DNA of 64,000 bases from Escherichia coli (GTDB taxonomy: Bacteria > Pseudomonadota > Gammaproteobacteria > Enterobacterales > Enterobacteriaceae). Shown one piece after another: positions 35,008 to 38,455 of this stretch. The notes under the pieces are model-generated. The model saw only the letters and a program-made list of their open reading frames with translations, made no database searches and was not told the DNA's origin. Both the position numbers and the translations under genes were made by a program. Every line of letters begins with the position of its first letter. Position 1 is the stretch's first letter. The DNA lies in NCBI RefSeq assembly GCF_003790525.1, contig NZ_CP033635.1; one strand, given 5' to 3'.

Positions 35008-35456
35008 TAATTTACTCCTATTCGAAAGTGATTATCGTCATGGCAATTTAACTTTATTATTCTATCTTTTATGGATGTACATCTCCTATATGGGTATACA
35101 CAAGAAAATGTGATGCATTTCTAAAAACTATTCTACTTTATTCGGTATTGCTGAATGATTCACCATTAAGAAAATAGATATAACAGTTCTTTATTTCTTT
35201 TATTTAACATGGTTGTATTAAATATTCAACAGGTTTTCTAATACCAGTTGGGCTTTGTTGAAAAAATCTGATTTAGGGTAAGAGCCCCGTAGCTAGTTGT
35301 GCTTTCAGGCAATACGCACGCTCTCAGGCATACCTACTTTCGTGATTTTATTCAGCGCTAGCGCCATGACCTGCGTATTACCGTGAAGGAGATCGGTGAG
35401 TAACATCGATGGAGATCGGTTCGTGTCACTTTCACAGAACCGTTTTTAAATTACCT

Positions 35457-36206
35457 TCACTGATCTCCTTCGGTCAACGGAGATTGTATTTTCCGCATTG
35501 ATTCTCCTTTAAGTTCGATCTTGATACTGCCATGAACCAGTCGATCTAGGATGGCATCCGCATGTGTGGAGTCTCCGATCATTTTGTACCAGTTTTCCAC
35601 CGGCAACTGGCTCACTACGATGATTGAGCCTCGTTGGTACATCAGATCCACTATTTCCAGCAGGTCGCTACGCTGTTCTGATGAGAGAGGTTCCAGCCCC
35701 CAGTCATCCAGAAGCAGCAGATCGCTATTATTCAGCCTGGTCAAAAGTTTGCTGTATCTTCCATCAGCATGCCCCTGATAGCACTGTTCCATCAGCGCTT
35801 TAAGGCGATAATAGTAGACCTTGTATCCCTGTCGGCAGGCATTATGACCAAGTGCACATGCCAGGAACGTTTTACCGCTGCCGGTGGCCCCGGTCAGTAA
35901 AATATTTTGTTTCAGGGTTAACCAGTTTCCCTGACTGAGTGAACGGATGAGGGCCCTGTCCAGCCCTCTATTGTTACGATAATCCAGCTTTGATAACTCA
36001 GCATTAAGTCTGAACCGTGCATGTTTGATCAGACGCTCTGCCTTCCTGTTTTCACGGCAGGTTAGTTCTTCTGCTGTCAGTAATGACAGGCGTTCTTCGA
36101 AGCCCAGCTCCTGGTATGTGCCCGGCTGAGCAAGTTGCTTTTTAAGCGCATCACGGAAGCCGGTGAGTTTAAGTGCGGTCAGTTGTTCGTAAAGATGATT
36201 CATCAT
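35457..36206 (-). CDS. istB: IS21-family helper ATPase IstB
   Basis: 249 aa, Walker A GATGSGKT. Confidence 0.9.
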   Translation of the reverse strand: MMNHLYEQLTALKLTGFRDALKKQLAQPGTYQELGFEERLSLLTAEELTCRENRKAERLIKHARFRLNAELSKLDYRNNRGLDRALIRSLSQGNWLTLKQNILLTGATGSGKTFLACALGHNACRQGYKVYYYRLKALMEQCYQGHADGRYSKLLTRLNNSDLLLLDDWGLEPLSSEQRSDLLEIVDLMYQRGSIIVVSQLPVENWYKMIGDSTHADAILDRLVHGSIKIELKGESMRKIQSPLTEGDQ

Positions 36207-36217
36207 TGGATCCCGTA

Positions 36218-37759
36218 TCAGTGGTAATACTCACTGCCGCGTACGTTTTCGTGTTCCATCGTGGATAACAGATCTGGTTTTGGATCCTGAACAGGTTGTT
36301 TATCCAGACCTTTTTCCAGGATCGATTTAATACCTGACAGACGCCATACCTTTGTTTTCAGAGCTCTTGCACATGCTGCATTAAGTCTGGCTTTACTGTA
36401 TTTTTTATGAAGGTTCAGGAGTCCAAGGCAGAAGCGATAGCTTTGTTCCGGATGTGGACGAGAGTTCAGTATATGAAGCACATAACTATGAGTTTCACTG
36501 CCTATGTGCCCCGCCCATTCCAGAAGACGCTCTGGCGTCCAGGTGGCATGCTGTCGATGAGCTTCAGGCATGTGCTCGTTGCGGGTACTGTAGCCATAAG
36601 TACGCTTGCGCGGGTGCACAGCAACCTCCTGCCCCTGATTGAAGAGTCTTACCAGTTCTCCGGAGATCCATGCTTCCAGTTGCTGGCCTAACAGCGAACA
36701 TGGAACCGAGTAGTAATGTTTGTCGATTTCCACGTGGTAATCGGCATGAACTCTGACTTTCTTCACCAGGGTGTAACTGTAACTGGCTTCAGGAAGAGGC
36801 TTCAGTGCGGGTTTATCAAGCTGGATGAAGAGTTCTGCACGTGAATAACCCAACTTCTGCATTATTTTGTTATTCAGTCTTTCCAGCAACTCCCGAATGC
36901 GCTGATTAAGCGATGCAAGGCTGTAGAAGATCTCATGCCTGATTCGGGCCATGATCCAGCGTTCAACAACCTGAACGCCAACTTCAGCTTTGGCTTTATC
37001 TTTCGGTTTACGTGGCCGCGCAGGCAAAACTGCGACATTATAATGCTCAAGCATCTGCTGGTAGGTAGGGTTAACGTCAGGATCATACTTACATGCCCTG
37101 GATGTGGCGCTTTTCAGATTGTCCGGAACAACAAGTTCAGGAACGCCACCCAACCACTGGAAGCAGCGAACATGACTCATCACCCAGTCTTCAAGCTGCT
37201 GAGACCAGGTGGCCTCTGCCCATGTGTAACTTGATGCCCCGAGAACAGCTACGATGACCTGAGCAGTTCTTATTTCTCCGGTCTCAGGGTCGGTAACGCC
37301 AACGGTAGGTCCACAGTAATCAACGAAAAGTTTTTCGCCAGCTTTATGTACCTGACGCATTGATGGTGAAGTGGTTTTGAGCCATTCACGGTACATCCGG
37401 CAGTAATGGTTATAGCTGTAAAAACCGCCTGGATTACGCTCACAGTATTCTTCCCAGAGTAGCTGCAGCGTCACGCATTTATTACGCAGTTCCCGGTGTA
37501 CTGTAGCCCAGTCAGGCAGAGAGTGCTTCTTCATCTTAACCTGGGTCTGAAGGAACGCATGTTTTAGTTTTGTATCATCCCATCCTGTAGGTAAGGGCCA
37601 CTGCTTTATACCAAGTTGAGCCGCCCGATTAGCATATCTGGATACAACGGAAGGGGAGATTGCAAGACTACGACCAATTTGTCGATGGCTGAGTCCAACA
37701 CCGTATTTAAGCCTAAGAATTTCTTTAAGTTTTCTCATAGAAATTGGAACTGTTGGCAT
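36218..37759 (-). CDS. istA: IS21-family transposase IstA
   Basis: 513 aa, HTH N-terminus and DDE integrase core. Confidence 0.9.
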   Translation of the reverse strand: MPTVPISMRKLKEILRLKYGVGLSHRQIGRSLAISPSVVSRYANRAAQLGIKQWPLPTGWDDTKLKHAFLQTQVKMKKHSLPDWATVHRELRNKCVTLQLLWEEYCERNPGGFYSYNHYCRMYREWLKTTSPSMRQVHKAGEKLFVDYCGPTVGVTDPETGEIRTAQVIVAVLGASSYTWAEATWSQQLEDWVMSHVRCFQWLGGVPELVVPDNLKSATSRACKYDPDVNPTYQQMLEHYNVAVLPARPRKPKDKAKAEVGVQVVERWIMARIRHEIFYSLASLNQRIRELLERLNNKIMQKLGYSRAELFIQLDKPALKPLPEASYSYTLVKKVRVHADYHVEIDKHYYSVPCSLLGQQLEAWISGELVRLFNQGQEVAVHPRKRTYGYSTRNEHMPEAHRQHATWTPERLLEWAGHIGSETHSYVLHILNSRPHPEQSYRFCLGLLNLHKKYSKARLNAACARALKTKVWRLSGIKSILEKGLDKQPVQDPKPDLLSTMEHENVRGSEYYH

Positions 37760-37929
37760 AGGTATCCTTTACCGGAATGGCAAAAGATACAGATCAACAC
37801 ACCTGTGAAGTTCCAATAACATTGATGGAGATCACTGAATAACAAAATGAGTCAAAAGTGATCTCCATCGATGTTATTCAGCGATCTGTTCAAATGTTAT
37901 TACCCGATCTCGATGGAAGTTATTGAGTG

Positions 37930-38455
37930 ATCTCCTTTCATGAAAATACGCACCATGACCATACCCTCTGCAACCTGACCATCGTAGTCACGCAGCGTCA
38001 GTGAACCTCCGAACAACTGTTTTACCCGGTACATCGCTGTTTCCGCTATCGAACGACGGTTATAATCTGTTGTCCATTTACACCGGGCATTACTTCCGGT
38101 CAGCCGCTGATTAGCCACTGCACGGTTACGGTCTTCGTATTCACCGGGCTAGTAACCCGCACCTTTTCGGGAAGGGGTAAGCGCGCTGATTTTCTTACGC
38201 CTCAGTTCATCGTGACAGAGTCGGGGGTCGTAAGCCCCGTCTACCGCTGCAGCCATGATTTTTCTGTGAGTCTGTTGGAGAAGCCCCGGGAAGGCTTCTG
38301 AGTCCGTGACGTTGTTCAGCGACAGGTCTGCACAGACAATTTCATGTGTGTTGCCATCAACAGACAGATGCGACGCCCCTCTTTGCCGTGCTTTTTGGCT
38401 TTCCTTTCGCCTTCCCCAAAGACTTTTAGCCCGTTGGAATCAATCACGAGGTGTA
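37930..38455 (-). pseudogene. IS903-like transposase fragment
   Basis: Frameshifted segments matching IS903 transposase (LVIDS.GLKVFGEGEW ... NRRSIAETAMYRVKQLFGGSLTLRDYDGQVAE). Confidence 0.7.

What the first reader, a model, noticed from the sequence alone, without database searches (positions are those of the whole stretch)
35258..38455. IS21-family element inserted inside an IS903-like element
IS903-like transposase coding sequence is found on both sides of an intact IS21-family element: the C-terminus and terminal repeat at 35258-35390 and further segments at 37930-38455. This records the order of events, IS903-like first and IS21 second. The IS903-like copy is also truncated at its 5' end, so it cannot transpose, while the IS21 copy looks functional.
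Basis: seen in the sequence. Interest (0 to 1): 0.35.

Follow-up and report, generated by a model that had tools for sequence, protein, structure and literature searches.

The report
ISEc12 inserted in a dead IS903-like remnant
An intact copy of the common E. coli jumping gene ISEc12 has landed inside the decayed stump of an older IS903-type jumping gene in a chromosomal island; related strains still carry the stump without the insert, so this is an ordinary, already annotated nested insertion.

Summary
The IS21-family element is ISEc12, at 35372-37952 (2581 bp, minus strand). It has intact istA and istB, TG...CA termini and repeated end motifs. It is flanked by an 8-bp target-site duplication, CCATGACC (35364-35371 and 37953-37960). 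With ISEc12 and one repeat copy removed, 35251-35371 and 37961-38473 join into 634 bp. This piece aligns in one stretch to positions 1-651 of an intact 1056-bp IS903-group element, at 83-87% identity. The remnant keeps one terminal repeat. It lacks about 405 bp (the other repeat and the transposase N-terminus), and has a 16-bp deletion and an in-frame stop, so it cannot move.

The decisive result is the in-silico excised sequence. It matches 22 complete E. coli genomes at 99.7-100% in a single piece, and in the one checked (strain 135) it lies in the same ynjA-adjacent island. So the IS903-like copy arrived, was truncated and decayed before ISEc12 inserted.

RefSeq annotation of identical loci already names both elements. 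The only mildly unusual point is the 8-bp duplication: 14 of 18 ISEc12 insertions examined have 5 bp. Interest is low.

The parts
35251..35371 (-). IS903-group (IS5 family) remnant, 3' part. It holds the 18-bp terminal inverted repeat (35251-35268), the transposase stop codon (35305-35307, minus strand) and the last ~21 codons.
   Evidence: Aligns to positions 1-122 of an intact IS903-group element. tblastn reaches the last residue of the reference transposase.
35364..35371 (.). Target-site duplication, copy 1 (CCATGACC). This is IS903-like sequence.
   Evidence: Identical 8-mer on both sides of ISEc12. The empty-site genomes carry it once.
35372..37952 (-). ISEc12 (IS21 family), complete, 2581 bp, with termini TGCGTATT...AATACGCA.
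   Evidence: 100% coverage at 99.8-100% identity to elements annotated ISEc12 in 1365 genomes. The same end points occur in 17 independent copies.
35372..35428 (.). istB-proximal terminal inverted repeat of ISEc12. The GGAGATC-containing motif is repeated with 23-bp spacing (35377-35405 and 35400-35428).
   Evidence: Repeat family D1 and inverted pairs I1, I2 and I20. Gapped end alignment. A 23-bp repeat spacing is described for the IS21 family (PMC10122671).
35457..36203 (-). istB, the AAA+ helper ATPase (248 aa; an ATG one codon upstream at 36206 gives 249 aa).
   Evidence: PF01695 at 227 bits. NF038214 at 270 bits against a cut-off of 200. Identical to WP_001016257.1.
36218..37759 (-). istA, the DDE transposase (513 aa).
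   Evidence: NF033546 at 310 bits against a cut-off of 160. PF00665 rve and PF22483. Identical to WP_001298859.1.
37815..37952 (.). istA-proximal end of ISEc12, with several copies of the same repeat motif and the terminal ...AATACGCA.
   Evidence: Inverted and direct repeats I1-I7 and D1, D3. End alignment.
37953..37960 (.). Target-site duplication, copy 2 (CCATGACC).
37961..38473 (-). IS903-group remnant, internal part (transposase residues ~126-301 of the 322-aa reference). It carries an in-frame TAG at 38149-38151 and a 16-bp deletion at about 38363-38372. It ends abruptly at 38473.
   Evidence: PF01609 at 76 bits and NF033579 at 164 bits on the conceptual translation. RefSeq marks it 'IS5 family transposase; frameshifted; internal stop; missing N-terminus'.
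38474..38637 (.). Unrelated 164-bp segment abutting the truncation point. It is followed by a 5'-truncated ssb gene. It is not part of either IS and marks where the remnant was cut.
   Evidence: Alignment to the IS903-group reference stops at 38473. ssb homology begins at about 38638.

Best explanation
This is a two-layer nest of insertion sequences in a decayed genomic island beside ynjA on an E. coli chromosome.

An IS903-group (IS5 family) element inserted first. It then lost about 405 bp, including its second terminal repeat and the first ~125 codons of its transposase. It also acquired a 16-bp deletion and a stop codon, and is now an immobile 634-bp stump.

Later an ISEc12 (IS21 family) copy integrated 113 bp inside the surviving end of the stump, about 21 codons before the transposase stop codon. 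By analogy with characterised IS21-family elements, IstA made staggered cuts in the target while the IstB ATPase held the target DNA. Repair of the stagger duplicated 8 bp, CCATGACC. This mechanism is inferred, not shown here.

ISEc12 is intact and probably still mobile. The stump is inert, and the insertion disrupted nothing functional.
For: - Exact ISEc12 bounds and identity.
- IstA and IstB family scores above curated cut-offs.
- 8-bp direct repeat at both junctions.
- The joined flanks align in one piece across the junction to an intact IS903-group element (83%) and to IS903B-annotated copies (86-87%).
- Lesions and truncation of the remnant: and the RefSeq note.
- Empty site: the sequence with 35372-37960 deleted matches 22 complete genomes at 99.7-100% in a single ungapped piece. 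The one inspected lies in the same ynjA/integrase/cytochrome b562 context. The same truncation junction is present there, so truncation came before ISEc12.
- Filled-site junctions occur in only 5-6 complete genomes, plus 21 with a further-rearranged derivative.
- IS21-family mechanism and end architecture: PMC10122671 and PMC11208146.
Against: Nothing contradicts the structure.

- The 8-bp duplication is not the usual ISEc12 outcome. Fourteen of 18 insertions examined have 5 bp, and 5 bp is the published value.
- Activity of this ISEc12 copy is inferred from intactness only.
- The empty-site genomes could in principle be precise-excision revertants rather than ancestors. That would not change the order of insertion.
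Confidence: 0.95

Rival explanations
1. The two IS903-like segments come from two different IS903-like copies. They were brought next to ISEc12 by recombination or deletion, for example recombination between two ISEc12 copies, rather than from one copy split by a single insertion.
For: The island is full of IS debris and rearrangements. Some strains do show later rearrangement at this ISEc12.
Against: The segments are exactly adjacent in IS903-group references. They are separated by a perfect 8-bp duplication. The uninterrupted form exists at 100% identity in 22 genomes.
Confidence: 0.01
2. The uninterrupted alleles are derived, not ancestral. ISEc12 was once present in all remnant-bearing lineages and was lost by precise excision through recombination between the 8-bp repeats.
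For: Sequence alone cannot polarise filled against empty. Precise excision between short direct repeats is a known, rare event (general knowledge).
Against: It would need excision to be exact in every one of the 22 genomes, or a single rare event that then spread. Filled alleles are the minority, and this ISEc12 copy differs by only 1-4 nt from copies elsewhere, which suggests recent arrival. Even if true, the IS903-like element still came before ISEc12.
Confidence: 0.04
3. The 8-bp repeat is a normal 5-bp duplication plus 3 bp of donor-flank or junction-spacer DNA carried in with ISEc12, matching the target by chance.
For: IS21-family elements can transpose from abutted-end junctions with a short spacer (my recollection of the IS21 literature, not checked here). 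Also, 5+3=8.
Against: The empty site shows that all 8 bases are target sequence. Three further ISEc12 insertions have perfect 7- or 8-bp target repeats, which chance carry-over cannot explain.
Confidence: 0.02

Closest known systems
ISEc12 (IS21 family), e.g. the tssM::ISEc12 insertion of E. coli ST131 clade C (PMC10711316)
   Same: Same 2581-bp element at 99.8-100% identity, with the same end points. IstA and IstB are identical to WP_001298859.1 and WP_001016257.1. L011 is that tssM (ImcF-related) insertion.
   Different: The target here is a dead IS remnant, not a functional gene. The duplication is 8 bp rather than the 5 bp reported for tssM and seen in 14 of 18 insertions examined.
IS903 / IS903B (IS5 family, IS903 group)
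   Same: An 18-bp terminal repeat matching 17/18. A DDE_Tnp_1-type transposase. Colinear alignment over 634 bp at 86-87% nucleotide identity to copies annotated as IS903B family, and 78-83% amino-acid identity to an intact relative.
   Different: Only ~60% of the element remains. It is 13-17% diverged from every intact copy in complete E. coli genomes and PLSDB plasmids, so it is not IS903B itself but an older, otherwise unseen group member. It has no second repeat and no intact ORF.
Reciprocal nest in E. coli P27_L1_05.20 and relatives (L002)
   Same: The same two kinds of element, one inside the other.
   Different: There an intact 1056-bp IS903-group element sits inside ISEc12 istA, with a 9-bp duplication CTCTTGCAC. 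The order of events is the opposite, and ISEc12 is the inactivated partner.

Membership tests
IS21 family (ISEc12) | istA encoding a transposase with a DDE (rve) catalytic core | tested here: met
   NF033546 at 310.5 bits (cut-off 160). PF00665 and PF22483.
IS21 family (ISEc12) | istB encoding an AAA+ helper ATPase, immediately downstream of istA on the same strand | tested here: met
   NF038214 at 270 bits (cut-off 200). PF01695 at 227 bits. The istA ORF ends at 36218 and istB starts at 36203/36206.
IS21 family (ISEc12) | Imperfect terminal inverted repeats ending TG...CA, each made of repeated transposase-binding motifs about 23 bp apart | tested here: met
   Termini TGCGTATT/AATACGCA. Motif copies at 35377-35405 and 35400-35428 (spacing 23), with several more at the other end. 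Family description in PMC10122671.
IS21 family (ISEc12) | Short target-site duplication (5 bp for many members) | tested here: met
   A perfect 8-bp duplication, proven to be target sequence by the empty site. It is longer than the usual 5 bp, but 7- and 8-bp duplications recur among ISEc12 insertions.
IS21 family (ISEc12) | Near-identity over the full length to the named element | tested here: met
   1-2581 at 99.8-100% to copies annotated 'IS21-like element ISEc12 family'. The ISfinder reference itself was not available.
IS21 family (ISEc12) | Transposition activity of this copy | not testable with these tools
   Inferred only from intact genes and ends.
IS5 family, IS903 group | 18-bp terminal inverted repeats GGCTTTGTTGAATAAATC at both ends | tested here: not met
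   One repeat is present (35251-35268, 17/18). The other end is deleted, and the alignment stops at reference position 651 of 1056. It is a remnant, not an intact member.
IS5 family, IS903 group | A single intact DDE transposase ORF of about 307-322 aa | tested here: not met
   Only residues ~126-322 are represented, with a frameshifting 16-bp deletion and an in-frame TAG. The homology itself is clear: PF01609 at 76 bits and NF033579 at 164 bits against a cut-off of 140.
IS5 family, IS903 group | 9-bp target-site duplication | not testable with these tools
   One end of the remnant is missing. An intact relative in L002 does show 9 bp.

The most novel reading that the evidence does not exclude
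ISEc12 may integrate with two classes of target stagger. The usual one is 5 bp. A minority class is 7-8 bp (4 of 18 insertions examined, this one included), and three of those four contain TGAC. If this is real and sequence-linked, the IstA-IstB transpososome would be able to adopt a second target-DNA geometry. In that case this locus would be a natural example backed by a verified empty site.
Probability: 0.2. Interest if true: 0.3.

Novelty: already known. Interest (0 to 1): 0.1.

Why it matters
It matters little beyond bookkeeping. The nest gives a clean, verifiable relative timing of two insertion events. Its junctions can also serve as lineage markers: the filled junction is in 5-6 of 5426 complete E. 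coli genomes, a rearranged derivative in 21, and the empty site in 22. No functional gene is affected. The intact ISEc12 remains a potential source of further insertions and rearrangements in this island, and the strains where an IS3-family element has since hit its end show that this happens.

Tried and rejected
- I first read the ISEc12 ends as TGAAGGAG... (35384) and ...CCTTTCA (37940). That gave no target duplication. Extending the inverted repeat outward to TGCGTATT/AATACGCA gave the correct ends, confirmed by independent copies.
- I looked for a closer intact relative of the IS903-like remnant in complete E. coli genomes and PLSDB plasmids. Nothing exceeds about 87%.
- I looked for the origin of the 164 bp beyond the truncation point (38474-38637). 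No plasmid relative was found, and only the downstream ssb fragment matches. The cause of the truncation stays unknown.
- I considered that hits H9-H25 were further filled-site genomes. They are a different locus, with an IS903-group element inside ISEc12.
- I considered donor-flank carry-over to explain the 8-bp repeat. It was rejected.
- No other ISEc12 or IS903-like sequence lies in the window, so a composite-transposon reading has no basis.

Full report
**What is in the sequence.**

Bases 35372-37952 are a complete IS21-family insertion sequence on the minus strand. It carries istA (36218-37759, 513 aa) followed by istB (35457-36203, 248 aa; one more codon if the ATG at 36206 is used).

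- IstA scores 310 bits on NCBIfam NF033546 (cut-off 160) and matches the Pfam rve integrase core.
- IstB scores 270 bits on NF038214 (cut-off 200) and 227 bits on PF01695.
- The element ends in TGCGTATT...AATACGCA. Both ends hold several copies of a GGAGATC-containing motif, two of them 23 bp apart at the istB-proximal end.
- This matches the multi-repeat terminal architecture and 23-bp spacing described for the family (PMC10122671).

RefSeq annotation of identical loci names it ISEc12. Full-length copies at 99.8-100% identity, with the same end points, occur in 1365 of 5426 complete E. coli genomes. Seventeen independent copies that I retrieved share these ends. Both proteins of the window copy are identical to the common forms WP_001298859.1 and WP_001016257.1.

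**The flanks.**

An 18-bp IS903-type terminal repeat lies immediately left of ISEc12 (35251-35268, GGCTTTGTTGAAAAAATC). It is followed by the last codons of an IS5-family transposase read on the minus strand, with the stop codon at 35305-35307. More of the same transposase lies to the right.

The 8 bases CCATGACC occur on both sides of ISEc12 (35364-35371 and 37953-37960). Removing 35372-37960 joins the flanks into a 634-bp piece.

- It aligns in one stretch, straight across the junction, to positions 1-651 of an intact 1056-bp IS903-group element found in another E. coli (L002), at 83% identity.
- It aligns at 86-87% to copies annotated as IS903B family on plasmids and chromosomes.
- The conceptual translation covers residues ~126-322 of the 322-aa reference transposase. 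It matches PF01609 and NF033579 above their cut-offs.

The remnant has a 16-bp deletion near 38363-38372 and an in-frame TAG at 38149-38151. It stops dead at 38473, so about 405 bp are missing, including the second terminal repeat and the transposase N-terminus. Beyond it lie 164 bp of unrelated sequence and then a 5'-truncated ssb gene. It cannot transpose.

**Order of events.**

I built the in-silico excised sequence (34900-35371 joined to 37961-38900) and searched complete E. coli genomes.

- Twenty-two genomes match all 1412 bases in a single piece at 99.7-100% identity.
- In strain 135, the one I inspected, the context is the same: ynjA, a tyrosine integrase, the cytochrome b562 gene, then the uninterrupted remnant, ssb, and PerC- and ProQ-family genes.
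- These genomes carry the same truncation junction and the same lesions. The IS903-like element was therefore already a dead stump when ISEc12 arrived.
- They also carry CCATGACC once, so the repeat is a true 8-bp target duplication.
- The filled left junction is present in 5 complete genomes and the filled right junction in 6.
- A further 21 genomes keep only the last 34 bp of ISEc12 (37919-37952) next to the remnant. In the one inspected (PK8275) an IS3-family element abuts that tail, a later rearrangement of the filled allele.

**Mechanism.**

By analogy with characterised IS21-family elements, an IstA tetramer pairs the two ends, cleaves at the terminal CA and makes staggered cuts in a target presented by the IstB ATPase. 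Repair of the stagger yields the duplication (PMC10122671, PMC11208146). This step is inferred, not shown here. The insertion hit no functional gene, so no phenotype is expected.

**The one unusual detail.**

The published ISEc12 duplication is 5 bp (tssM of ST131, PMC10711316). All in-vitro insertions of the related IS5376 were also 5 bp. Among 18 independent ISEc12 insertions (the window plus 17 others), the count is:

| Duplication length | Insertions | Sequences |
|---|---|---|
| 5 bp | 14 | various |
| 7 bp | 2 | CACTGAC, CTCAGAA |
| 8 bp | 2 | CCATGACC (this one), CCGATGAC |

The longer repeats are exact, so they are not 5-bp repeats lengthened by chance. The window's 8 bp are shown to be target sequence by the empty site. 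This looks like modest natural variability in stagger. I did not survey enough copies to say whether the shared TGAC is meaningful.

**Comparison and verdict.**

Both elements belong to well-known families, and the nest is already annotated in identical RefSeq loci. Those records name the ISEc12 istA and istB and mark an 'IS5 family transposase; frameshifted; internal stop; missing N-terminus'.

ISEc12 passes every family test I could run. The IS903-like piece is clearly homologous, but it fails the tests for an intact member, having one repeat only and no intact ORF. It is 13-17% diverged from every intact relative in the collections searched.

Only the coordinates and the size of the duplication needed to be established. 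This is an ordinary finding of low interest.

Noticed in passing
window 35364-35371 / 37953-37960; loci L002, L007-L022: ISEc12 target duplications vary. Among 18 independent insertions, 14 have 5 bp, 2 have 7 bp and 2 have 8 bp. Three of the four long ones contain TGAC. The literature consulted reports 5 bp.
   Followed up: partly
L002 5003-6058 (equivalent to window 36364-36372 inside istA): Reciprocal nest in other E. coli genomes (17 records). An intact 1056-bp IS903-group element, with a 322-aa transposase, is inserted in ISEc12 istA with a 9-bp duplication CTCTTGCAC.
   Followed up: yes
window 37918/37919; L003 4970-5003: In 21 complete genomes only the last 34 bp of ISEc12 remain beside the IS903-like remnant. 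In the one inspected (PK8275) an IS3-family element and unrelated DNA (MobI, RhuM, type I restriction genes) lie to the left. In strains XDL and AR13438 an IS3-family element sits within ISEc12, giving a third layer of nesting.
   Followed up: partly
window 38474-38928: A 164-bp orphan segment is followed by a 5'-truncated ssb gene (annotated 98 aa, 38632-38928). The ORF at 38516-38728 fuses unrelated N-terminal sequence with out-of-frame ssb DNA. PerC-family (38946-39266) and ProQ/FinO-family genes follow, reminiscent of plasmid or ICE leading-region genes.
   Followed up: partly
window 13-29000 versus 29000-44800: Core chromosome (pfkB...ynjA) is only 97.6% identical to strain SFE8. The adjacent integrase-bearing island is 99.9% identical. 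This suggests the island, or this chromosome segment, was exchanged between lineages.
   Followed up: no
window 40940-57460: About 16.5 kb is present in the window but absent from the otherwise colinear island of strain 135 (L004). By position in the SFE8 annotation it should hold pseudogenised ABC-transporter genes, a PhoX-family gene, ICE-type gene remnants and possibly iha. These features were not mapped to window coordinates. The island is a mosaic of IS3, IS110, IS630 and IS66 debris.
   Followed up: no
L022 281-2860: An ISEc12 copy in tssF of strain 14EC020 is 2580 bp, with a frameshifted istB. It is an example of a decayed copy, in contrast to the intact one in the window.
   Followed up: no
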